In this document: positions 20,230 to 62,398 of the stretch, piece by piece
Numbering within the stretch: position 1 is the stretch's first letter
Layout of the letters: each line of letters begins with the position of its first letter
Source of the DNA: Candidatus Zambryskibacteria bacterium RIFCSPLOWO2_01_FULL_39_39
GTDB lineage: Bacteria > Patescibacteriota > Minisyncoccia > Phycocordibacterales > WO2-35-19
Direction: 5' to 3'
Length of the DNA: 64,000 nucleotides
Assembly: GCA_001823925.1 (NCBI GenBank)
Contig: MHWB01000013.1
Location: 9,338-73,337, forward strand
Position numbers and translations under genes: made by a program
The notes under the pieces: generated by a model
Seen by the model: only the letters and a program-made list of their open reading frames with translations
Database searches by the model: none
Told to the model about the DNA's origin: nothing

Positions 20230-22224
20230 CTATAACAAATTATCTGGATCTGTCTTAATCTCAAAGTGGGGAGGTAAAGATTTTAAAATAGAAAAAAGAG
20301 CAGAATCTACCCATTTTTCTTTGGGTATTTTAATGACGGCATTTATGGCAGATTGCTCACCCCTTTTTTCATGAATGGATGGGAAAATGGTGGCGCTATA
20401 ATTTTTATTTTCGGAATTTTCAAACACATTCTTCAACACTTGAGTTTCTTTTCCGACAAAACTTTTAGTGCCTCTCACTGTTATTTTTATAAAAATACTA
20501 AAAGGTGGGTAACTTAAAACCGCGCGATCCTCTATTTCCTTTTTATAAAATTCTATTAAATTGCCACTTCTTGCAAATTCTACAGTTGAATCTTTTGGGT
20601 TTCTGGTCTGTATCAAAAGGTTTTCTTTGGCTATACTTTTGGTTTGTAAAATAAGACGGAAAATTTTTTCTCTGATACGAAAATCAGGAATAGAGAATAG
20701 GGAATCAAAAGAACAAATAGCACTACTTCCCACTTTTTTATAAATATAAGAGAGAGCCATCTCGGTACCCAAAAGTATTGAGCCTTTATTTTCATAAAAG
20801 TTTTTGATTACATTTAAGGCTTTGGCGTTTGTTTCAACAATATCTTTGTGTAATTCAAAAAGATTTATGTTTGGGACACTCTTTCTTAATTCTTCGGCTA
20901 CTCTGTCAATACCAGAACCAAATGCCGCAAGCTTCCAGCTGTGACAATTTTGACAAACTTCTGCCGCGTCTCGTGTTTCGCCACATTGATGACATTTAAA
21001 AACGGCGCCATTTTGGGTACTTTGGTCCGGAGATGTTTTAGTTTTATATAAGATCATAGGAGATGAGCAGTTGAAACATTTTACCTGTTCTCCGCAGTCA
21101 CGGCAGACAGTAACCGACGATAAGCCTTTTCTAGCCGCAAATATAAACATATTAGAACCTTTTTCTATGGTTTTTTTGATTAAATTTAGTAATTCTGGCG
21201 ATATGGTTTTGAATTCTTTTCCTTGCCCCAATTCTTTCAAGTCTATTATGGTCGTTTTGATTTCAAGAGGCATTCGCCATTTGACGTTTTCAAATTCAGA
21301 TACTTCCCCTTGTTTGTATCTGTATAAAGTTTCTATTCTCAAAAAAGAATCTCCAATCACGGTACGGATATTTTTTTTATTAGCCAAAATTTCAGCAAAA
21401 AATCGAAGGTCTATAAAAGGTCGCGATAAAGTTTTCCAACCAGTTTCATTTTCTTTATCTATAATAATGGTGCCGAAATCTAATCTTGGCAAAAATAACC
21501 ATTTGGCTGTGGCTATAATTAATACAGGATGCTTTGTTTCGCATGCCCTTTTCCATTCCTTGATTAAATCCTTTTTCTTCATTTCATTATGAAAAGTGCA
21601 GACAAAGGATTCTATACCACGTTCTAGTTTTTCCTGAGTTTTTCGCACGTTTTCATTTTGAGGTAAGCATAGAAAAACTGATTTTTTCTTAGCAAATTCT
21701 TCCCTGATAAGAGATTTATAAAGATCTAATCTTTCCTCGTTTGGAGCTTGTAAGATAGCAATTTCATTTTTAATACTGTCGTTGCCAAGGACAGTCCTTA
21801 AACTGCCCCGGTCCCAAAGGACTGTCCTTGGCAACTGAAGCAAGTTTGGGTTTTCTAAAATGAAAGAAGGAATAAGTTGGGGAATAATATTGCCTTCTGT
21901 GGCGACAAAATATTTGGCCGTCTCTCTCACCGCTTCCAAGAATTTTTTTTGTAAAAATGGTTTAGCAGTTACGGCTGAAATTTTTTTTAATTGAAAATTT
22001 GCGGATTTTATAGAAAGTTTTGCCTCTGTCACGTCCTTACTTTCTAAAACCAAAGCTGAAACACTTTTTCCTCTAATGTTTATTTTTAACAAAGAACCGG
22101 GCTCTAAATATTTAGGTCCAAAATATGACAGTGACTCTTTACTCAAACCTTTTGAAAGTGGTAGACATTCTATGATAAACATATGCTTTAAGTAAAAAGC
22201 AAAAAGCCTAAAGTAGCAAGTCAT
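20230..22224 (-). CDS. priA: Primosomal protein N' (PriA helicase) with in-frame palindromic insertion
   Basis: 664 aa; helicase core plus Cys4-Cys4 zinc module CRDCGEQVKCFNC...CHQCGE...CQNCHS. Confidence 0.85.
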   Translation of the reverse strand: MTCYFRLFAFYLKHMFIIECLPLSKGLSKESLSYFGPKYLEPGSLLKINIRGKSVSALVLESKDVTEAKLSIKSANFQLKKISAVTAKPFLQKKFLEAVRETAKYFVATEGNIIPQLIPSFILENPNLLQLPRTVLWDRGSLRTVLGNDSIKNEIAILQAPNEERLDLYKSLIREEFAKKKSVFLCLPQNENVRKTQEKLERGIESFVCTFHNEMKKKDLIKEWKRACETKHPVLIIATAKWLFLPRLDFGTIIIDKENETGWKTLSRPFIDLRFFAEILANKKNIRTVIGDSFLRIETLYRYKQGEVSEFENVKWRMPLEIKTTIIDLKELGQGKEFKTISPELLNLIKKTIEKGSNMFIFAARKGLSSVTVCRDCGEQVKCFNCSSPMILYKTKTSPDQSTQNGAVFKCHQCGETRDAAEVCQNCHSWKLAAFGSGIDRVAEELRKSVPNINLFELHKDIVETNAKALNVIKNFYENKGSILLGTEMALSYIYKKVGSSAICSFDSLFSIPDFRIREKIFRLILQTKSIAKENLLIQTRNPKDSTVEFARSGNLIEFYKKEIEDRAVLSYPPFSIFIKITVRGTKSFVGKETQVLKNVFENSENKNYSATIFPSIHEKRGEQSAINAVIKIPKEKWVDSALFSILKSLPPHFEIKTDPDNLL
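21781..21835. repeat. 55-bp palindromic element in priA (stems ttgccaaggacagtcctt, loop aaactgccccggtccca) encoding LPRTVLWDRGSLRTVLGN
   Basis: near-identical to intergenic copy 25994-26048. Confidence 0.75.
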
Positions 22225-22257
22225 CTAAATCACTAATTTTATGGTAAAATATCTATT

Positions 22258-23028
22258 ATGAATTTATCTTTTGATAAAAAACTAGCAGATAATTATACAA
22301 GTCAATCTCAAAAAATCAGAGTTTTAACTGAAGATTGGGTTGATAATCAAATTTTTTGCCCAAATTGTGGACATCTTAATATAGATAAATATGAAAATAA
22401 TAAACCAGTCGCCGATTTCTTCTGTTCAAATTGTAAGGAAGATTATGAATTAAAAAGTAAAAAAGAAACAATTGGCAATAAACTTGTTGATGGTGCATAC
22501 CACACGATGATTGAAAGATTGCAAAGTAGTAATAACCCTAATTTTTTTCTTCTTAATTATGATTTACAAAATTTTGAGGTTTTAAATTTTTTTGTCATTC
22601 CAAAACATTTCTTTATTCCAGATATTATAGAAGAACGCAAAGCATTATCCCAAACAGCAAGGCGTGCTGGTTGGATTGGTTGTAATATTTTACTACAGAG
22701 CATTCCGCAAAGCGGAAAAATATTTTTTGTAAAAAATCGTCAAATTGAGTCAAAAGAAAAAATTCTCGCAAAATGGCAAAAAACGCTATTTCTCCGAAAA
22801 GAAAAAGAAATTAGTGCAAAAGGTTGGCTTTTAGATATAATTAATTGTATTGAAAAATTAAAAAATAAAGAATTTACCATTGATGAAATTTATGTTTTTG
22901 AAAGTTTTTTATCCAAAAAACATCCTGAAAACAAATATATCAAAGACAAAATTCGTCAACAACTACAGATTTTGAGGGATAGGGGGTATTTATATTTTAT
23001 TAGCAGAGGAATTTATAAAATAAAATGA
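22258..23028 (+). CDS. DpnI-like Type IIM (methyl-directed, G-m6A-TC) restriction endonuclease / Dam-replacing protein family
   Basis: 256 aa; segments SQSQKIRVLTEDWV, CPNCGH, KPVADFFCSNC, ELKSKK, DGAYHTM, NNPNFFLL, RRAGWIGCNI, KIRQQLQILRDRGY match my recollection of DpnI/DRP family. Confidence 0.6.
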   Translation: MNLSFDKKLADNYTSQSQKIRVLTEDWVDNQIFCPNCGHLNIDKYENNKPVADFFCSNCKEDYELKSKKETIGNKLVDGAYHTMIERLQSSNNPNFFLLNYDLQNFEVLNFFVIPKHFFIPDIIEERKALSQTARRAGWIGCNILLQSIPQSGKIFFVKNRQIESKEKILAKWQKTLFLRKEKEISAKGWLLDIINCIEKLKNKEFTIDEIYVFESFLSKKHPENKYIKDKIRQQLQILRDRGYLYFISRGIYKIK

Positions 23029-23189
23029 CAATAAAAAAATTTATCAAAAAATTAGAAAGAATTGTAAAGGAACATGGACCATCTCTTGAGGTGAAAATGG
23101 CAGATGATATACCAGTAGTTAGTCCTGTTTGTACGAGAGATTTTATGGATAAAAAGGTGGTTGTCATAACAGATCAAGAAGGAGATGGA
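23025..23189 (+). CDS. Small hypothetical protein (54 aa) translationally coupled to DpnI-like gene (ATGA overlap)
   Basis: ORF MTIKKFIKKLERIVKEHGPSLEVKMADDIPVVSPVCTRDFMDKKVVVITDQEGDG read from sequence; below ORF-track length cutoff. Confidence 0.3.
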
Positions 23190-23226
23190 TAGGTTAGAGC
23201 TAAAATTTTAAAAAGTTACAGGTTCT

Positions 23227-23442
23227 GTGGATGAGAAACTGCAAACCTGTGATTTTAAGAAGAAACAATTTCGGAAACTTTTTGCAACTCTTAATATTGA
23301 AATTGAGTACATTTATATTCTAGGAGATTGGTTTAAATTACCAAAATATAAAGATGTTCTTGATTACGTCATCTCTGTTGGTTGTCAGTATTATTTTGGA
23401 TATTTACCTTTGCAAAAATTGGGGTTGCCTGTACCTAAATAA
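23227..23442 (+). CDS. Hypothetical protein
   Basis: 71 aa ORF in very AT-rich accessory segment. Confidence 0.25.
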   Translation: MDEKLQTCDFKKKQFRKLFATLNIEIEYIYILGDWFKLPKYKDVLDYVISVGCQYYFGYLPLQKLGLPVPK

Positions 23443-23445
23443 AAA

Positions 23446-24237
23446 ATGTCAGCGAAGAATTTAATAAAATGGTTGAAGAAATTAAAAATAAATAAAGAAA
23501 AATTACCAATTCTTCTTAGGATATTTGAGATAATTATTTTATTTTTAGTTCCTATTGTTTTCTATATAGCATGGTTTATATCTGAATATGAAGAGGTACA
23601 CATATTCAGCAATCTAGAAGTGATTGGAAATAAACTAACTTTTAATAACCGGCAAGAAATGATGGCTTTAAAAGATTCTATGTATGAAAATACAAAAAAT
23701 GATTTCCCAGTACAATTCTCAAAACAAAAAATTTCTGATTTTGATAACTTCAAATCACAAGTTTCTGAAAGGTTCATTGAGGAACTTAGTGTATTTTCAT
23801 CACTTCCTATTCATAGGGCATGTTTAATCAACAAAAACGAAATATTTATACTAGGCAATCTACAAGAAAATATTGGCCTTTCAACGGGGGGAGCTGCTAT
23901 AAACCAAAAAGATGGCTATAATTTCTATGCAGAGAGAAATGGTGAAGATTGCAAAAATATTTCCATAAGCAAATTTAGAGAAAGCCCATCTAGAGCAGAA
24001 TACGCATATCCTTTTACTACGATCATGAGCCAAGAAGAAGGTGTAAAATTCCAAAATGGAGAAAAATTTACGGCAGATATAGCAACTTCTTCTGTAATTG
24101 CTTCCGATACGATAATTAAAATCCGCCTAAATTATTGGACATTTGTTATTTTTTATTTTATCGTTCTTCCTGCATGGTCGGTTATCTTTTTTCAGTACAA
24201 GAAAATCTCTAGCTACTTAAAAAATCCCAGCAATTAA
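23446..24237 (+). CDS. Hypothetical membrane protein (N- and C-terminal TM helices)
   Basis: 263 aa; no recognised motif. Confidence 0.4.
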   Translation: MSAKNLIKWLKKLKINKEKLPILLRIFEIIILFLVPIVFYIAWFISEYEEVHIFSNLEVIGNKLTFNNRQEMMALKDSMYENTKNDFPVQFSKQKISDFDNFKSQVSERFIEELSVFSSLPIHRACLINKNEIFILGNLQENIGLSTGGAAINQKDGYNFYAERNGEDCKNISISKFRESPSRAEYAYPFTTIMSQEEGVKFQNGEKFTADIATSSVIASDTIIKIRLNYWTFVIFYFIVLPAWSVIFFQYKKISSYLKNPSN

Positions 24238-24345: not shown

Positions 24346-25365
24346 TTGGATATGTCATTTTTTTCTAAAAAATTGGGTATTGATTTGGGAACGGCCAACA
24401 CTCTGGTTTTTGTGCCGGGTAAGGGTGTAGTTTTAAACGAGCCTTCGGTGGTGGCTATTTCCCTTGAAGATAATAAAATTTTAGCAGTTGGTAATGAAGC
24501 AAAAATAATGATAGGCCGGACTCCTAAAGCTATTGTGGCTTATAGACCAATGAAAGATGGGGTAATCGCCGATTATAAAGTTACGGAAGCAATGCTTTCT
24601 TATTATATGAAAAAAGCTATGGGTGGCTGGGGTTTTATAAAACCAGAAGTGCTGATTAGTGTGCCAGCCGGAGTCACTTCTACCGAAAGAAGGGCGGTAA
24701 TAGAAGCGGCTATAAAAGCGGGGGCCAAGAATGCTTATGTCGTCAAAGAGCCCATTTTGGCGGCTATTGGAGCTGGTATCCCTATATATGAAGCCAGGGG
24801 ACATATGGTTGCTGATATTGGTGGGGGTACCACGGATGTGGCAGTGATCTCTTTGGGTGGTATTGTTTCAGCCACTTCGGTCAAATGTGCTGGTAACAAA
24901 ATTGACGAAAGTATAATTGATTACATCAAAAAAACTTTTAATTTGGCCATTGGAGATAAAACAGCGGAAGATATAAAAGTTAAAATAGGATCGGCATTAC
25001 CCATAGATGAAGAGCTTGTCATATCTATAAAAGGTAGAGATTTTATTTCAGGGCTCCCTAGATCAGTTGAAATCAAAACTAACGAAATAGTCAAAGCTAT
25101 TTCACGAGAACTTCGAGAGATAATAAAAGCGATCAAAGATGTCTTGCAAGAAACCCCACCCGAACTCGCTGCCGATATAATGGACCATGGTATTATCATG
25201 ACCGGAGGGACTTCCGCTCTCAGAAATCTTCCTGAACTGATCTTTAGAAGAGTTGGGGTAAAAGCAATCCTTGCAGAAAATCCTCTTTACTGCGTTGCAG
25301 AGGGTACTGGTATTGCTTTGGAACATTTGGGTGCCTACAAAAGAGTGGTGGCCTCTAAAAGATAA
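24346..25365 (+). CDS. mreB: Rod shape-determining protein MreB (paralog 1)
   Basis: 339 aa; actin-fold motifs GIDLGTANT, DIGGGTTDVAV, MTGGTS. Confidence 0.85.
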   Translation: MDMSFFSKKLGIDLGTANTLVFVPGKGVVLNEPSVVAISLEDNKILAVGNEAKIMIGRTPKAIVAYRPMKDGVIADYKVTEAMLSYYMKKAMGGWGFIKPEVLISVPAGVTSTERRAVIEAAIKAGAKNAYVVKEPILAAIGAGIPIYEARGHMVADIGGGTTDVAVISLGGIVSATSVKCAGNKIDESIIDYIKKTFNLAIGDKTAEDIKVKIGSALPIDEELVISIKGRDFISGLPRSVEIKTNEIVKAISRELREIIKAIKDVLQETPPELAADIMDHGIIMTGGTSALRNLPELIFRRVGVKAILAENPLYCVAEGTGIALEHLGAYKRVVASKR

Positions 25366-25993: not shown

Positions 25994-26048
25994 GTTGCCA
26001 AGGACAGTCCTTAAAATGCCCCGGTCCCAAAGGACTGTCCTTGGCAAC
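25994..26048. repeat. Intergenic copy of 55-bp palindromic element (holB-frr spacer)
   Basis: ttgccaaggacagtccttaaaatgccccggtcccaaaggactgtccttggcaa; 1 nt different from priA copy. Confidence 0.75.
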
Positions 26049-29094: not shown

Positions 29095-30162
29095 ATGTTC
29101 AAAGAGAAATTGGAAGAGTGGAAACGTGTTTTGCGCAATGATATAGGTATTGATTTAGGGACGGCCAACATGCTTGTTTATGTTCGTGATAAAGGTATTA
29201 TTTTAAACGAACCTTCAGTGGTGGCGGTCAATCAAAAAACAGGACAAGTAGTCGCTGTTGGGACGGAAGCTAAAAATATGCTTGGTCGAACACCGCCACA
29301 TATTGTTGCAGTGCGACCCATTGTTGATGGGGTTATATCTGATTTCGAAGTGACAGAAGAAATGCTTCACTATCTTTTAAACAAAGCCCAATCAGTGTCA
29401 AAAAAAATATTGGGACCTAGGGTAGTGGTAGGAGTGCCTTCCGGTATAACCAATGTAGAAACTAGAGCAGTCCGTGACGCTACCAAAAATGCAGGAGCAA
29501 GTGAAGTGCATATAGTAGAAGAGCCAATGGCAGCTGCTATAGGGATGCATTTACCGATAAATGAACCAACAGGTAATATGGTAATCGATATGGGCGGAGG
29601 CACGGCAGACATTGCAGTTATTTCTTTAAGTGGAGTTATTAGTTCTAAAAATGTCCGCATAGCGGGTGATAAATTAAGTAATGACATTGCCGCCTACATA
29701 AGAAGTGAATTCAAAATAGTAATCGGAGAAAAGACTGCTGAAAATATAAAAATAGCAATATGTTCACTCTTACCAGAAGAGGATCCATTAGAGACAGAAG
29801 CTAGGGGGCGAGATCTAATAACCGGATTGCCACGAGAGGTTGTGGTCACTGACTCTGATATGAGAGATGCGGTGTCACATTCGATCGAGAGGTTGGTAGA
29901 AGCTACCAAAGAAGTGTTGGAAATCACTCCACCAGAAATACTTTCTGATATTATGCATCGTGGTATTCATTTGGCTGGCGGAGGGGCTCTTATAAAGGGG
30001 TTTGCTAAAGTTTTGGAAAGAGAAATAAAAATACCAGTTTATATTGCCGATGACCCTTTGACCTGTGTTGTTCGTGGTACTGGTATAATTTTGGAAAAAC
30101 TTGAACAATTTAGAGAGGTTTTAATAGCTGATGAAAATGACATTTCAAATAAAACACACTAA
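29095..30162 (+). CDS. mreB: Rod shape-determining protein MreB (paralog 2)
   Basis: 355 aa; GIDLGTANMLVYV, DMGGGTADIAV, LAGGGA. Confidence 0.9.
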   Translation: MFKEKLEEWKRVLRNDIGIDLGTANMLVYVRDKGIILNEPSVVAVNQKTGQVVAVGTEAKNMLGRTPPHIVAVRPIVDGVISDFEVTEEMLHYLLNKAQSVSKKILGPRVVVGVPSGITNVETRAVRDATKNAGASEVHIVEEPMAAAIGMHLPINEPTGNMVIDMGGGTADIAVISLSGVISSKNVRIAGDKLSNDIAAYIRSEFKIVIGEKTAENIKIAICSLLPEEDPLETEARGRDLITGLPREVVVTDSDMRDAVSHSIERLVEATKEVLEITPPEILSDIMHRGIHLAGGGALIKGFAKVLEREIKIPVYIADDPLTCVVRGTGIILEKLEQFREVLIADENDISNKTH

Positions 30163-59435: not shown

Positions 59436-60170
59436 ATGATACCAAAGAAAAAAAATACTTCATCGTCGGGTGAATCTCTGCCCAAAGTTACAGAATTGCG
59501 CAACGAAAAAGAAATTGTCCGCGCTGTTTCGTACACTGAAGAAGAGCTGGCTACACACCTAGATCCAGAAACTTCAGATACGGCAGATTCAGAATCAAAG
59601 AGTTTAATTTTGCGTGGTTTACTTGGGGTGGTGAAAAATATCGGTCTCGGGCAAACCAATTATGAGCTCTCTTTAAGCATTGACGGATTAATCCACATCA
59701 TAACTGAACTTGATAGAGCTGCTCTCGATTTGGTAGCTGGCGCAGAGGCGCAGGTGGCAGAATTTGCAACAGAGCTCGAAAAATCTCAGGAGAAGAAGTT
59801 GACTCTGCCGACGCTGTCTCTCGCCGAGATTACCGTCGAACTCAAGCGCCGCGACGAGATACGAGAAAGAGTCTCTTCTATCCAAGAGGGGCTCGAGAAC
59901 GAGTGTGATTCGATAATTGAGGAGATCAGAACATTTGATCAGCTCCTGCAGCATAATGTGTCAAGCGATCCTAAAATCACGAAGATGAGAAGGGATCAAT
60001 TGGGGCAAAAGCTACAGAGTTTGAGCAAGACTGTTGATGGTATCGTCGGAGCCATATCCGATAACGATCGTAAAGTCGAAGCTCTGCTTGCTTACGAAAA
60101 CGCTGTAAAGCTCGTGAGTGAAGGGCTACCGGAAGGCATTATCGGCGAAGAGATCAGTCTCGGAAAGTAA
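59436..60170 (+). CDS. Hypothetical coiled-coil protein
   Basis: 244 aa, acidic, helical heptads; strong promoter and RBS. Confidence 0.5.
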   Translation: MIPKKKNTSSSGESLPKVTELRNEKEIVRAVSYTEEELATHLDPETSDTADSESKSLILRGLLGVVKNIGLGQTNYELSLSIDGLIHIITELDRAALDLVAGAEAQVAEFATELEKSQEKKLTLPTLSLAEITVELKRRDEIRERVSSIQEGLENECDSIIEEIRTFDQLLQHNVSSDPKITKMRRDQLGQKLQSLSKTVDGIVGAISDNDRKVEALLAYENAVKLVSEGLPEGIIGEEISLGK

Positions 60171-60230
60171 CCGAGTAGAAAACAACCCCAAGACCATATG
60201 GCCCTGGGGTTTTTGTATCCATCTAGGAAA

Positions 60231-61742
60231 TTACTTGAGGAACTCGCTCCGAATCTTGTTTGCAAACAGAGTCGCTTCGTTCGGATCGCGAGGGAACTTG
60301 CTTTTGCCGATCGCAGCCAGCACCTGCATGAGGCAGTGTTCGCGTCGGGCCTGCTTGGTTTCTGGCAACGCCTTGTACCCACCCCGCACGTTGGTGAAGA
60401 TCACCTTCGGATTGTTGGGGTTGACTTGGGCAAAAACGAACGGATGGAGAGTTTGTCCACGATAGAGATTATAAATCTCATCATGAACTCTGATCGAGAT
60501 ATACCGACGATACTTATCACCTGCCGGCGTGGGTTCTCCACCACCACTGGGCTTCGGACCATCGGTCGGCTCCTTGGGTTTTGGATCCCGCGGTTTCCTG
60601 GTGCCCCCCTCAGAGATATTCTCTCCGTCGGGTTCACCGAATCGATCATTGAACATCTCCGCGAGTTCGTCGAGCGTCTCCGCGGCATTACCACGGATAG
60701 CATCGCGCTCGATAAGCTGCTTCGAGACTGGAGCGACTTGGCTGATCAAAAACATCAAGAGCTTTGACCACTCCTTATTGCCCTTGCGAGTGAACTCCTT
60801 CGCCAAAGTGCTTCGCGCCGTATTCTGGTAGCGAAGCAATCCTGGAGCAAAGATGTCACCTACAAGATCGGGGTACCATAGCGGGTCGGGCAAAAGTCGC
60901 CCGAGCTTTTGGCAGCTTGCAACACGAAACCCAGTCTCGTCATCGCAAAGCCACACGCCATCGCTCTCGGTATTACCTACTCCAAGTCGGGCGCGATAAC
61001 GTCCGTCCTGGGAGGTAATGTTGATGTCCATCTCAAGTGGCGGAGGCCCATAAGTTTTACCACCGATGAGAAGATCGAACATCTTATCCTGTTCGCGAGG
61101 CAAGAGCCATTTCACAGCATCGTAAATTTCGCCGTGGCTCTGGAAGATCGGGGTCGGAATGATAATCGAAGTAAACGAGCCCGGAATATTCTTCAGCGAA
61201 CCCATTTCCGTCGAAGTCGGGGAAATGAAACGCTCGGTCTCAAATCCCTGCTCCGTCTCCGCTCTCTCCGGGATAACCGGTACAAACCTGACTTCACCGG
61301 ACTTGGAAGTTCGGGAAAGTAGATAGTAACCATGTTTGATCCGGGTCATGATGTCGTCATGCAAGCAGTTCTCATTCAGGGCAAGAGCGGCAAGCCGTCC
61401 GATACCTTTTTGAGAAGCTCCATTGTAGGAGCCATTTTGATGCTGCCTGAGTTGGGCAAGTGGCGTACCAAGCCAATTAAAATATCGCTCGAGTGCCGGA
61501 TCGGTGAGACCGCATCCGTGATCGAGGATAACGAGTGCTACACCCTTGCTCGGGGACAGTGGATGATTCGGAACGAGCGAAACTTCAATCTTCGCCCGCT
61601 TCGGCTCCCACTTGTTGGTTGGCATGCTGGCCACCAGCGAGTTGCGGATGAGTTCCATCACTCGCTGGCCTTCGCTCTCATAGAGACCGGTAGCCAGGTT
61701 GTCCACCATGTGGAAAGCCGTCACTTTCATTTGAAGCTTCAT
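60231..61742 (-). CDS. GHKL-superfamily (HATPase_c-like) ATPase with ~250-aa unknown C-terminal domain
   Basis: 503 aa; N-box ELIRNSLVA, G1 box VILDHGCGLT, G2 box SQKGIGRLAALAL; 3rd gene of operon (ATGA overlap with upstream ORF). Confidence 0.5.
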   Translation of the reverse strand: MKLQMKVTAFHMVDNLATGLYESEGQRVMELIRNSLVASMPTNKWEPKRAKIEVSLVPNHPLSPSKGVALVILDHGCGLTDPALERYFNWLGTPLAQLRQHQNGSYNGASQKGIGRLAALALNENCLHDDIMTRIKHGYYLLSRTSKSGEVRFVPVIPERAETEQGFETERFISPTSTEMGSLKNIPGSFTSIIIPTPIFQSHGEIYDAVKWLLPREQDKMFDLLIGGKTYGPPPLEMDINITSQDGRYRARLGVGNTESDGVWLCDDETGFRVASCQKLGRLLPDPLWYPDLVGDIFAPGLLRYQNTARSTLAKEFTRKGNKEWSKLLMFLISQVAPVSKQLIERDAIRGNAAETLDELAEMFNDRFGEPDGENISEGGTRKPRDPKPKEPTDGPKPSGGGEPTPAGDKYRRYISIRVHDEIYNLYRGQTLHPFVFAQVNPNNPKVIFTNVRGGYKALPETKQARREHCLMQVLAAIGKSKFPRDPNEATLFANKIRSEFLK

Positions 61743-62398
61743 AAACTTTTTCTCCTTTTCAATGTTTTAAATCCGAGATCTCGCAAATCTTCGCGAGTCA
61801 CCGGCTGGCTACGAGTCATATCTGGCTCAGGAAAAACTGCTTTGATACCGAACGCCTTGCAAGTGCGCGTGAGCGCATCACAAATTTGCATCCGGTCGCC
61901 GTCGTAAACATCGGAAGGCCTGACGCCCGTCTCGATGATGAGACCTACAAGTGAATTGAACAATGTGATGGTGTGGTCGATTAGTTTTCGAGCCGCACCA
62001 GAAGTGCTTGGCTCACTCATTTGCCTCTCCCGATAAATCTCTTCCGGAATTTTTTCGATCGGTTTTTCAATTTCTACTTTCAGAGTGCCGTTTGCGATTT
62101 GACTCAATGTCCTGAGGACTAGTCGGATGTCGTCTGCTCTCATTGGCTCGCCGTTAAGCCAGCCTCTTACTTTTTGAAATCCTTCGCCTTGTATTTTCAA
62201 ACAATGGCGAGTGAATTTTCTCACAGCATTACGACTGTTGACCGCATTGTGCGGGGAGATCACTTGGATTGCCCGCCTCAACTGCTCCATCATTTTAGAG
62301 AAATCCCAATCGAACATATTTTCACTGATCTCGTGCGCAACAGATTCTTTGGCGTCTTCAAACACTTCTGTTTGGCTTCTAGTTTGTTCGTTTTCCAC
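61739..62398 (-). CDS. Hypothetical protein (operon partner 2)
   Basis: 219 aa; stop overlaps start of GHKL ATPase gene. Confidence 0.45.
   Translation of the reverse strand: MENEQTRSQTEVFEDAKESVAHEISENMFDWDFSKMMEQLRRAIQVISPHNAVNSRNAVRKFTRHCLKIQGEGFQKVRGWLNGEPMRADDIRLVLRTLSQIANGTLKVEIEKPIEKIPEEIYRERQMSEPSTSGAARKLIDHTITLFNSLVGLIIETGVRPSDVYDGDRMQICDALTRTCKAFGIKAVFPEPDMTRSQPVTREDLRDLGFKTLKRRKSL

What the first reader, a model, noticed from the sequence alone, without database searches (positions are those of the whole stretch)
22258..24237. DpnI-like methylation-dependent restriction endonuclease with coupled small ORFs
Several sequence blocks of the 256-aa protein (SQKIRVLTEDWV, CPNCGH, RRAGWIGCNI, QQLQILRDRGY) match what I recall of DpnI / Dam-replacing family proteins, which cut G(m6)ATC. 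It has an ATGA-coupled 54-aa ORF followed by a 71-aa ORF and a 263-aa two-TM protein, all in an extremely AT-rich stretch. This would be a Type IIM defence module against Dam-methylated invaders, and it implies the host does not methylate GATC.
Basis: partly seen in the sequence, partly recalled or inferred. Interest (0 to 1): 0.55.

Follow-up and report, generated by a model that had tools for sequence, protein, structure and literature searches.

The report
DpnI restriction cassette with R-M relic
This groundwater bacterium (Candidate Phyla Radiation) carries an intact DpnI-type enzyme predicted to cut only Dam-methylated GATC DNA, followed by a small partner gene that accompanies DpnI in many lineages and by the broken remnant of a conventional GATC restriction gene that the cassette apparently displaced; this "methylase-replacing" pattern is already known from pneumococcus and Neisseria.

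Summary
The 256-aa ORF (22258-23028) is a full-length DpnI-family Type IIM endonuclease: Pfam PF06044 6e-84 plus PF17726 1.5e-30, and PDB 4esj 1.4e-85. Every catalytic, Zn-binding, GATC-contacting and methyl-pocket residue of R.DpnI checked is identical, apart from E228D in the winged helix.

The three downstream ORFs differ in nature:
- orf55 (ATGA-overlapped) belongs to an unannotated ~52-aa family of 410 clusters. It lies directly after DpnI in 17 of 106 non-redundant loci including the window. All 5 members picked independently of DpnI also sat directly after a DpnI gene.
- orf71 is not a small gene. It is the 3' relic of a ~180-aa PD-ExK nuclease, lacks the PD motif, and has TAA in place of a conserved Gln codon. 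Intact copies follow DpnM-like or DpnIIB-like methyltransferases.
- orf263 is a lineage-specific membrane protein not linked to DpnI.

Across loci DpnI is often flanked by a 5' methyltransferase relic and/or this 3' nuclease relic, and it is AT-rich relative to its host. The same M and R families lie, disrupted, beside gonococcal drg.

Verdict: a new member of a known kind (a dam/DpnII-replacing DpnI cassette), with a previously undescribed linked small protein. Interest is moderate.

The parts
22258..23028 (+). DpnI-family Type IIM restriction endonuclease gene (256 aa): N-terminal PD-(D/E)XK catalytic domain with a Cys4 Zn site, plus a C-terminal winged-helix domain
   Evidence: Pfam PF06044 6e-84 and PF17726 1.5e-30. 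PADLOC mREase_II 1.5e-118. PDB 4esj R.DpnI 1.4e-85 over residues 1-254. E25, D53, E64, K66, C34/37/56/59, S17, Q18, N48, D78, R126, L129, R135, W138, G140, K229 and R231 are all conserved (residue roles from PMC3424567 and PMC4117772). dN/dS about 0.15 against the syntenic relative L013.
23025..23192 (+). orf55: member of a ~52-aa protein family of unknown function that is specifically linked to DpnI genes; its start codon overlaps the DpnI stop (ATGA)
   Evidence: Homologs lie -4 to about +380 nt after DpnI in 16 other non-redundant loci from several lineages. The family has 410 clusters, all hypothetical. 5 of 5 members chosen only for long contigs lie directly after a DpnI gene in five different neighbourhoods. 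Invariant M1, F6, I7, L10, M25-A26-D27, P34, T49-D50. dN/dS about 0.17-0.34. No Pfam, NCBIfam, PADLOC or significant PHROG family.
23185..23211 (+). 9-codon frame (MDRLELKF*) that heads the nuclease relic; it holds the residual E-x-K motif and ends at TAA 23209-23211, where intact genes have a Gln codon (CAA)
   Evidence: Read directly from the sequence and aligned at nucleotide level with the intact R gene of L145 and with the relics in L018, L078, L137 and L035.
23194..23442 (+). 3' relic (delta-R) of a ~180-aa PD-ExK Type II restriction endonuclease gene.
   Evidence: phmmer: 437 relatives, with the query aligning to about residues 100-175 of 170-190-aa proteins. tblastn maps P0248 residues 96-177 to window 23194-23439. 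Full-length members hit PF20472 PDDEXK_11 (3 of 5 above the cut-off) and have invariant P81-D82...E97-x-K99. Intact genes follow a D12 DpnM-like MTase (L145) or an N6_N4 MTase (L147).
23446..24237 (+). orf263: lineage-specific predicted membrane protein with two terminal hydrophobic helices. It is packed 3 nt after the relic but is not part of the DpnI module
   Evidence: Only one relative among 5.8 billion sequences (P0122, 45% identity), on a contig with no DpnI gene in the 2.6 kb upstream or 1.8 kb downstream. No family hits. The AF2 model is unusable (pLDDT 44). The syntenic relative L013 has other genes at this position.
22225..22257 (.). 33-nt spacer between the divergent priA start and the DpnI start; no methyltransferase relic is present here, unlike in 19 other loci
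   Evidence: ORF coordinates. tblastn with both methyltransferase types finds nothing in the window.

Best explanation
The locus is a horizontally acquired, AT-rich DpnI cassette lodged between priA and mreB of a Candidatus Zambryskibacteria genome.

Its first gene encodes a DpnI-family Type IIM endonuclease. By analogy with R.DpnI, this is a monomer whose PD-(D/E)XK domain and winged-helix domain each read fully methylated G(m6A)TC, cutting Dam-methylated incoming DNA while sparing the host's own unmethylated GATC sites (inferred).

The second gene, orf55, is translationally coupled to DpnI. It belongs to a ~52-aa family that travels with DpnI, so it is most likely an accessory or regulatory partner. 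Its function is unknown, as is that of pneumococcal dpnD.

The third ORF is not a gene in its own right. It is the catalytically dead 3' end of the restriction gene of a GATC-type (DpnII-like) R-M system. The DpnI+orf55 segment sits where that system's methyltransferase gene and the 5' half of its R gene would be. This is the same kind of 'methylase-replacing' event documented for drg/dam in Neisseria and for the DpnI/DpnII cassettes in pneumococcus. Such a swap removes GATC methylation and installs the enzyme that attacks it in one step.

The fourth ORF, orf263, is unrelated local cargo.
For: Shown:
- Family membership and conservation of all functional residues.
- Purifying selection on DpnI and orf55.
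- The DpnI-to-orf55 linkage in both directions.
- orf71 matches only the C-terminal ~75 residues of ~180-aa PD-ExK nucleases.
- Intact copies of that nuclease gene lie directly after methyltransferase genes: a D12 enzyme closest to M.DpnII-1 (2dpm, 4.6e-55) in L145, and an N6_N4 enzyme in L147.
- 19 of 102 non-redundant DpnI loci carry the 5' ~65-118 codons of that N6_N4 methyltransferase, ending at or a few codons before the DpnI ATG. 8 of 93 carry the 3' nuclease relic, always after orf55. L078 and L035 carry both.
- The DpnI gene has lower GC than its flanks in 57 of 60 loci.
- In N. gonorrhoeae, drg is followed by disrupted copies of the same M family (51% identity) and R family (54%).
- The literature calls that gonococcal gene DpnIIB-like, assigns the locus GATC specificity, and documents dam truncation by drg (PMC4269198, PMC6789123, PMC7973814, PMC516771).

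Inferred:
- Actual G(m6A)TC cleavage.
- Absence of Dam methylation in the host. This rests on 199 unavoided GATC sites (obs/exp 0.93) and no D12 or N6_N4 MTase in the window.
- A partner role for orf55.
Against: - The window itself has no 5' methyltransferase relic. The replacement scenario for this genome therefore rests on the 3' relic plus the pattern in other loci.
- No genome with an intact M-R pair at the priA/mreB site was found, and no DpnI locus shares flanks with the intact M-R locus L147.
- The relics are more conserved than simple decay predicts: dN is 0.07-0.25 with synonymous sites saturated, even between relics with nearly the same junction. They may therefore retain a role or be refreshed by recombination.
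- GATC specificity of the ~180-aa nuclease is inferred from its methyltransferase partners and from Neisseria annotations. It is not demonstrated.
- About a quarter to a third of DpnI loci have none of the small ORFs, so orf55 is not required by every DpnI.
- No activity or methylome data exist for this organism.
Confidence: 0.8

Rival explanations
1. The 5' methyltransferase and 3' nuclease fragments are not dead scars. They are maintained homology arms: DpnI(+orf55) and M-R are alternative alleles that flip by homologous recombination through the shared 5'M and 3'R segments. This keeps the arms open and protein-like, because in the other allele they are parts of working genes.
For: - Recurrent, precise junctions ('...FEFHL*' at M residue ~79 and '...SGT(I/V)*' at ~103) in diverged loci, with the truncated M reading frames still open from their own Met.
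- Relic dN is 0.07-0.25 with saturated dS.
- Two loci carry both arms.
- There is precedent in the pneumococcal cassette exchange and in Dam/Drg alternation at one Neisseria locus (PMC4471560, PMC6789123).
- DpnI dS between the two syntenic Zambryskibacteria (0.59) is well below that of flanking mreB (1.38) and priA (1.63), which is compatible with later exchange at the locus.
Against: - No pair of related genomes with DpnI versus M-R at the same site was found.
- The window lacks the 5' arm.
- Nested shortening of the 3' relic (starting at R residue ~75-85 in L035, ~96-97 in four loci including the window, then 150, 154, 157 and 161) looks like erosion.
- The low dS of DpnI may be an artefact of extreme AT bias.
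Confidence: 0.3
2. orf71 is a functional small protein: the C-terminal domain of the nuclease, retained and expressed from GTG 23227 for a new role alongside DpnI and orf55, for example DNA binding or regulation.
For: - An open frame of 71-76 codons is preserved in the window, L018, L035, L078 and L137, with amino-acid identity of 75-86% to the window and saturated synonymous divergence.
- It always follows orf55.
- It is tightly packed with the neighbouring ORFs.
Against: - In the window the conserved Gln codon is TAA, and only a GTG without a clear ribosome-binding site remains.
- Start contexts differ between loci: an ATG overlapping orf55 in L018, a separate ATG in L035, and none obvious in L078 or L137.
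- Other loci keep only 17-28 C-terminal codons.
- Most orf55 genes have no such neighbour.
- NCBI's annotation of the contig calls no gene there.
Confidence: 0.15
3. orf55 has no functional tie to DpnI. It merely hitch-hikes as part of one successful mobile DNA segment, and its conservation reflects an unrelated function.
For: - The function is unknown: no family, fold or motif assignment.
- Only ~17% of DpnI loci have it, and DpnI is also followed by other small ORF families (orfA, orfB) in mix-and-match order.
Against: - 5 of 5 independently chosen members lie directly after DpnI in unrelated neighbourhoods.
- All 17 hits in the locus set lie within ~380 nt downstream of DpnI and none elsewhere in about 1 Mb of flanks.
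- When directly adjacent, spacing is about -4 to +6 nt.
- It is under purifying selection.
- Pure hitch-hiking over this much divergence would be expected to break the linkage sometimes.
Confidence: 0.2

Closest known systems
R.DpnI of Streptococcus pneumoniae (dpnC; PDB 4esj/4kyw), Type IIM, G(m6A)^TC
   Same: Same length and two-domain architecture, with 51% identity end to end. The catalytic E25/D53/E64/K66, Cys4 Zn site, GATC-contacting residues, methyl pocket (L129, R135, W138, G140) and winged-helix recognition residues are all conserved. Like dpnC, it is followed by a gene of unknown function.
   Different: The downstream gene here is a 55-aa protein with no detectable family, and its relation to the pneumococcal dpnD could not be tested (no dpnD sequence was available). 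The host is an uncultivated CPR bacterium. The cassette abuts a relic of a different, ~180-aa nuclease family (PF20472); no Pfam DpnII-named family was among its hits.
Neisserial dam-replacing gene drg (NmeBII / Drg, NgoAXI locus)
   Same: A DpnI homolog (47% identity) with lower GC than its host, sitting where a GATC methyltransferase gene would be. Truncated or disrupted R-M genes lie next to it, and the same N6_N4 (DpnIIB-like) methyltransferase family and the same ~180-aa nuclease family are adjacent (PMC4269198, PMC516771, PMC6789123).
   Different: In gonococci the M and R genes downstream of drg are near full length but disrupted. In the window only the last ~80 codons of R remain and no M remains. 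Neisseria lacks orf55, orfA and orfB. The insertion site is leuS/dam rather than priA/mreB.
Pneumococcal DpnI/DpnII/DpnIII cassette exchange (Lacks et al. 1986; PMC4471560)
   Same: Complementary GATC systems (methylate and cut unmethylated, versus cut methylated) occupying the same place in the genome. The intact system related to the relic has a DpnM-like (2dpm, 4.6e-55) or DpnA/DpnIIB-like methyltransferase followed by R.
   Different: In pneumococcus the exchange uses homology in flanking housekeeping DNA and leaves no gene fragments. Here the junctions lie inside the M and R genes themselves. Alternative alleles at one site were not found here.

Membership tests
DpnI / Dam-replacing family, Type IIM restriction endonuclease (Pfam PF06044 + PF17726) | N-terminal DpnI catalytic domain scoring above the Pfam gathering threshold | tested here: met
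   PF06044 280.7 bits against a cut-off of 26.7, residues 1-181 matching profile positions 1-182 of 183.
DpnI / Dam-replacing family, Type IIM restriction endonuclease (Pfam PF06044 + PF17726) | C-terminal winged-helix (DpnI_C) domain | tested here: met
   PF17726 105.6 bits against a cut-off of 23, residues 187-254. By my reading of the alignment, recognition-helix residues K229, R231 and Q232 are identical and E228 is Asp (roles from PMC3424567).
DpnI / Dam-replacing family, Type IIM restriction endonuclease (Pfam PF06044 + PF17726) | PD-(D/E)XK catalytic residues E25, D53, E64, K66 and the four Zn-binding cysteines | tested here: met
   All eight are identical at aligned positions (roles from PMC3424567).
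DpnI / Dam-replacing family, Type IIM restriction endonuclease (Pfam PF06044 + PF17726) | Catalytic-domain residues reading GATC and the two m6A methyl groups (S17, Q18, N48, D78, R126, L129, R135, W138, G140) | tested here: met
   All are identical (roles from PMC4117772).
DpnI / Dam-replacing family, Type IIM restriction endonuclease (Pfam PF06044 + PF17726) | Cleavage of G(m6A)TC only when methylated | not testable with these tools
   Needs enzyme assays on Dam+ and Dam- DNA.
DpnI / Dam-replacing family, Type IIM restriction endonuclease (Pfam PF06044 + PF17726) | Host genome lacks Dam-type GATC methylation | tested here: inconclusive
   tblastn finds no D12 or N6_N4 methyltransferase in the 64-kb window. 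There are 199 GATC sites, obs/exp 0.93.
Methylase-replacing DpnI cassette (Neisseria drg/dam; pneumococcal DpnI/DpnII) | DpnI gene adjacent to truncated genes of a GATC-type R-M system | tested here: met
   The 3' nuclease relic is at 23194-23442. There is no 5' methyltransferase relic in the window, but one is present in 19 of 102 other loci and both relics occur in L078 and L035.
Methylase-replacing DpnI cassette (Neisseria drg/dam; pneumococcal DpnI/DpnII) | Composition foreign to the host (lower GC) | tested here: met
   DpnI 0.271 against 0.387 for the window. DpnI has lower GC than its flanks in 57 of 60 loci.
Methylase-replacing DpnI cassette (Neisseria drg/dam; pneumococcal DpnI/DpnII) | Alternative (methylase or R-M) allele at the same chromosomal site in related genomes | tested here: inconclusive
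   The only syntenic relative recovered (L009/L013) also has DpnI between priA and mreB. No DpnI locus shares flanks with the intact M-R locus L147.
PF20472 (PDDEXK_11) ~180-aa Type II restriction endonuclease, for orf71 | PD...ExK catalytic motif (P81-D82, E97-x-K99 in alignment A2) within one reading frame | tested here: not met
   The window fragment starts at about residue 96. There is no PD motif, and the E-L-K triplet lies upstream of an in-frame TAA. It is therefore filed as a relic, not as a member.
Pneumococcal DpnI cassette second gene dpnD, for orf55 | Sequence similarity to DpnD | not tested
orf55, orfA and orfB matched no Pfam family at E<=1, other than weak sub-threshold chance-level hits.

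The most novel reading that the evidence does not exclude
In ultra-small bacteria and archaea (CPR and DPANN), and also in other lineages, DpnI may travel as a self-targeting replacement cassette. The truncated methyltransferase 5' end and nuclease 3' end would serve as recombination arms that let DpnI(+orf55) overwrite resident GATC R-M systems, and possibly be overwritten in turn. The ~52-aa orf55 family (with the orfA and orfB families in other loci) would be dedicated DpnI partners, for example inhibitors or timing factors that protect the cell while old methyl marks are diluted after the swap.
Probability: 0.25. Interest if true: 0.6.

Novelty: new member of a known kind. Interest (0 to 1): 0.4.

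Why it matters
The enzyme itself is ordinary: a well-annotated family with thousands of members. Three results from the follow-up are useful.

1. The "dam-replacing" logic known from two pathogens recurs across uncultivated CPR, DPANN and other lineages, with gene-internal junctions that document the displaced GATC R-M system.
2. DpnI has specific, conserved small-protein neighbours (orf55 here; orfA and orfB elsewhere) that no database describes. These offer a handle on the unresolved question of what the second gene of DpnI cassettes does.
3. A ~180-aa PD-ExK family (PF20472) emerges as a candidate GATC-type restriction enzyme.

For this genome it predicts an unmethylated-GATC host that restricts Dam-methylated DNA.

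Tried and rejected
- **orf55 as the missing N-terminal half of the nuclease:** hhalign probability 0.09.
- **orf55 plus orf71 as one recoded gene:** the two are in the same frame with one stop in L035, +1 in the window, and overlapping out of frame in L018. The frames are inconsistent, so this was rejected.
- **orf55 as a phage protein:** only weak N-terminal PHROG hits (E 0.003-0.2) and no relative in IMG/VR.
- **Fold assignment for orf55:** the AF2 model has pLDDT 69 (helix plus three strands), and the best Foldseek PDB match has E=0.54.
- **orf263 as a DpnI partner or known defence protein:** one relative only, not next to DpnI; no family hits; AF2 pLDDT 44, so no fold search was run.
- **DpnI as a phage- or plasmid-borne gene:** one winged-helix-only hit in phage records, only Neisseria chromosomes among 'plasmids', and one 55% relative in IMG/VR.
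- **Shared flanks between the intact M-R locus L147 and any DpnI locus:** none found.
- **Structured RNA, promoter or terminator signals in the region:** Rfam finds only two tRNAs, elsewhere in the window. Promoter and terminator matches are at chance level.
- **PDB sequence search with the nuclease family profile:** no relative.
Full report
**Observation.** The + strand between 22258 and 24237 carries four tightly packed co-directional ORFs:
- a 256-aa ORF at 22258-23028;
- a 55-aa ORF at 23025-23192, whose ATG overlaps the upstream TGA (ATGA);
- a 71-aa ORF starting with GTG at 23227-23442;
- a 263-aa ORF at 23446-24237, with hydrophobic segments near both ends.

The stretch has 27-33% GC, against 38.7% for the window and 34-41% for the flanking priA and mreB. 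Exact-protein look-ups place the window on contig MHVP01000014.1 of GCA_001825295.1. This is a Candidatus Zambryskibacteria metagenome-assembled genome, and the same genes occur in many assemblies of that population.

**The 256-aa protein is a DpnI-family enzyme.**
- It matches Pfam PF06044 (6e-84) and PF17726 (1.5e-30), each over the full profile.
- It matches the PADLOC model for Type II methyl-directed restriction enzymes (1.5e-118).
- It aligns with crystallised R.DpnI (4esj) from residue 1 to 254 at E=1.4e-85 and 51% identity.
- I took the functional residues from the two structure papers (PMC3424567 and PMC4117772). These are catalytic E25, D53, E64, K66; Zn ligands C34, C37, C56, C59; base contacts S17, Q18, N48, D78, R126, R135; methyl pocket L129, R135, W138, G140; and winged-helix residues K229, R231. 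All those mapped are identical in the window protein. By reading the same alignment, Q232 is identical and E228 is Asp.
- The family is very large: at least 7,785 clusters at E<=1e-10. It is conserved at 68-85% identity across many CPR phyla, Nanoarchaeota, Bathyarchaeia, Omnitrophota and others.
- Between the window and its only syntenic relative, dN/dS is about 0.15.
- Methylation-dependent cutting itself is inferred, not shown.

**orf55 is a specific DpnI neighbour.** tblastn and jackhmmer over 105 non-redundant DpnI loci, fetched from genome and metagenome collections, found orf55 homologs at 35-65% identity to the window in 16 of them, in several lineages. All lie on the same strand within about 380 nt after DpnI, and none lies elsewhere in the flanks. 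A profile search found 410 clusters, all 50-60-aa hypothetical proteins.

For the reverse test I picked five members only because they sit on long contigs. All five lie 0-185 nt downstream of a DpnI gene, in five unrelated neighbourhoods. When directly adjacent, the spacing is about -4 to +6 nt. The family has invariant M-A-D and T-D motifs and a dN/dS of about 0.2-0.3. It has no Pfam, NCBIfam or PADLOC family, no significant PHROG family, no relative in IMG/VR, and no fold match.

Two further unannotated small-ORF families follow DpnI in other loci, in mix-and-match order. orfA gave 59 ORF hits across the 105 loci and includes the gene after DpnI in the syntenic relative; orfB gave 13. Roughly a quarter to a third of loci have none of these families.

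**orf71 is a relic, not a small gene.** A full-library phmmer search found 437 relatives. The query aligns to about residues 100-175 of proteins that are mostly 170-190 aa long. Full-length members hit PF20472 (PD-(D/E)XK), three of five above the cut-off, and have invariant P81-D82 and E97-x-K99.

The window retains only residues ~96 onward. At nucleotide level it reads GAG CTA AAA TTT TAA AAA GTT where an intact gene reads GAG CTT AAA TTT CAA AAT GTA. The residual E-L-K therefore lies in a 9-codon frame (23185-23211) closed by a nonsense codon, and only GTG 23227 remains as a possible start. Other loci keep similar or much shorter 3' pieces, always after orf55.

**What the relic came from.** Intact copies of the nuclease gene lie directly after methyltransferase genes.
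- In L145/L146 the partner is a D12-class enzyme (PF02086, 3.8e-49). Its best solved relative is M.DpnII-1 (DpnM, 2dpm) at 4.6e-55, well ahead of E. coli Dam at 7.8e-29.
- In L147 the partner is a 265-aa N6_N4 (beta-class) enzyme whose stop overlaps the nuclease start.

Searching with that beta-class enzyme showed that 19 of 102 non-redundant DpnI loci carry its first ~65-118 codons immediately upstream of DpnI. These fragments are open from their own Met. [quoted passage not shown] They end in a stop at or a few codons before the DpnI ATG, with recurrent junctions ('...FEFHL*' and '...SGT(I/V)*'). Two loci (L078, L035) have both the 5' M relic and the 3' R relic. The window has no 5' relic, since priA starts 33 nt upstream.

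**Link to known biology.** The N. gonorrhoeae drg locus was recovered because two chromosomes are filed as plasmids. It shows leuS, then drg (47% identity to the window protein), then a disrupted N6_N4 methyltransferase (51% identical to the L147 enzyme), then a frameshifted member of the same ~180-aa nuclease family (54%).

The literature describes that gonococcal neighbour as 'DPNIIB-like'. It documents drg inserted within dam with dam truncation in meningococci, and reports a lower GC for drg than for the host (PMC4269198, PMC516771). It also assigns GATC to the dam and dpnIIB pair, with Dam or Drg alternating at the NgoAXI locus (PMC6789123, PMC7973814). In pneumococcus, DpnI (dpnC plus dpnD, of unknown function) and DpnII (dpnM, dpnA, dpnB) are syntenic alternatives (PMC4471560).

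The window therefore shows the same kind of event in a CPR bacterium: a low-GC DpnI cassette occupying the place of the methyltransferase and the 5' part of the nuclease gene of a GATC-type R-M system. In 57 of 60 loci the DpnI gene has lower GC than its flanks.

**Open points.**
- The relics are better conserved than simple decay predicts: dN is 0.07-0.25 with saturated dS, even among relics with nearly the same junction. They may have been cut from diverged intact genes repeatedly, be refreshed by recombination with intact alleles (the homology-arm model), or retain a function. I could not separate these possibilities.
- DpnI dS between the two syntenic Zambryskibacteria (0.59) is lower than for mreB (1.38) or priA (1.63). 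This may mean later exchange at the site, or may be an artefact of extreme AT bias.
- No alternative M-R allele at the priA/mreB site was found.
- The host's GATC methylation state is inferred from 199 unavoided GATC sites (obs/exp 0.93) and the absence of D12 or N6_N4 genes in the window only.

**orf263.** It has a single relative (45% identity) on a contig with no DpnI gene nearby, no family hits, and an unusable structure model. The syntenic relative carries different genes at this position: a long orfA and a NYN-domain gene. It is local cargo of a variable spot, not part of the DpnI module.

**Verdict.** The locus is a new member of a known kind, a dam/DpnII-replacing DpnI cassette. It comes with a previously undescribed, specifically linked small protein and a clear scar of the displaced restriction gene. 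Interest is moderate.

Noticed in passing
window 21781-21835 and 25994-26048: Two copies, differing at one base, of a 55-nt palindromic element (GTTGCCAAGGACAGTCCTT...AAGGACTGTCCTTGGCAAC; 19-bp stem, -35.7 kcal/mol). One lies inside the priA coding sequence, where it encodes LPRTVLWDRGSLRTVLGN with almost no length change relative to the PriA of the syntenic relative. The other lies in the holB-frr spacer. None is expected by chance.
   Followed up: partly
L123:72-821, upstream of DpnI at 830: An apparently intact N6_N4 methyltransferase (DPPY and FLGSGTT motifs present; 39% identical to the L147 enzyme) lies directly upstream of an intact DpnI gene. If it methylated GATC the pair would be self-destructive, so it presumably has another specificity.
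   Followed up: partly
other DpnI loci, e.g. L013:8768-9250, L010:6806-7075, L018:8771-9144: Two further unannotated small-ORF families follow DpnI in many lineages. orfA has a short ~66-aa form and a long 90-150-aa form, and gave 59 ORF hits across 105 loci, including a Campylobacterales locus. orfB is ~60 aa with 13 hits. Neither has a Pfam or PHROG family.
   Followed up: partly
window 22258-23028 versus L013:8001-8768: Synonymous divergence of DpnI between the two syntenic Zambryskibacteria (dS 0.59) is less than half that of the flanking mreB (1.38) and priA (1.63). This suggests more recent exchange at this spot, or an AT-bias artefact.
   Followed up: no
L052:32-369 (Campylobacterales MAG): Fragments of a D12-class (Dam-type) methyltransferase lie just upstream of a distant DpnI homolog (50% identity). 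This is the alpha-class counterpart of the beta-class relics seen in CPR loci.
   Followed up: no
window 24352-25365 and about 29095-30162: Two MreB paralogs (about 46% identical) lie 4 kb apart, the second followed by mreC and a PBP2-type transpeptidase.
   Followed up: no
window 60000-62000: A GC-rich stretch (0.51-0.53 against 0.39 overall) with long ORFs on both strands. It was not examined further.
   Followed up: no
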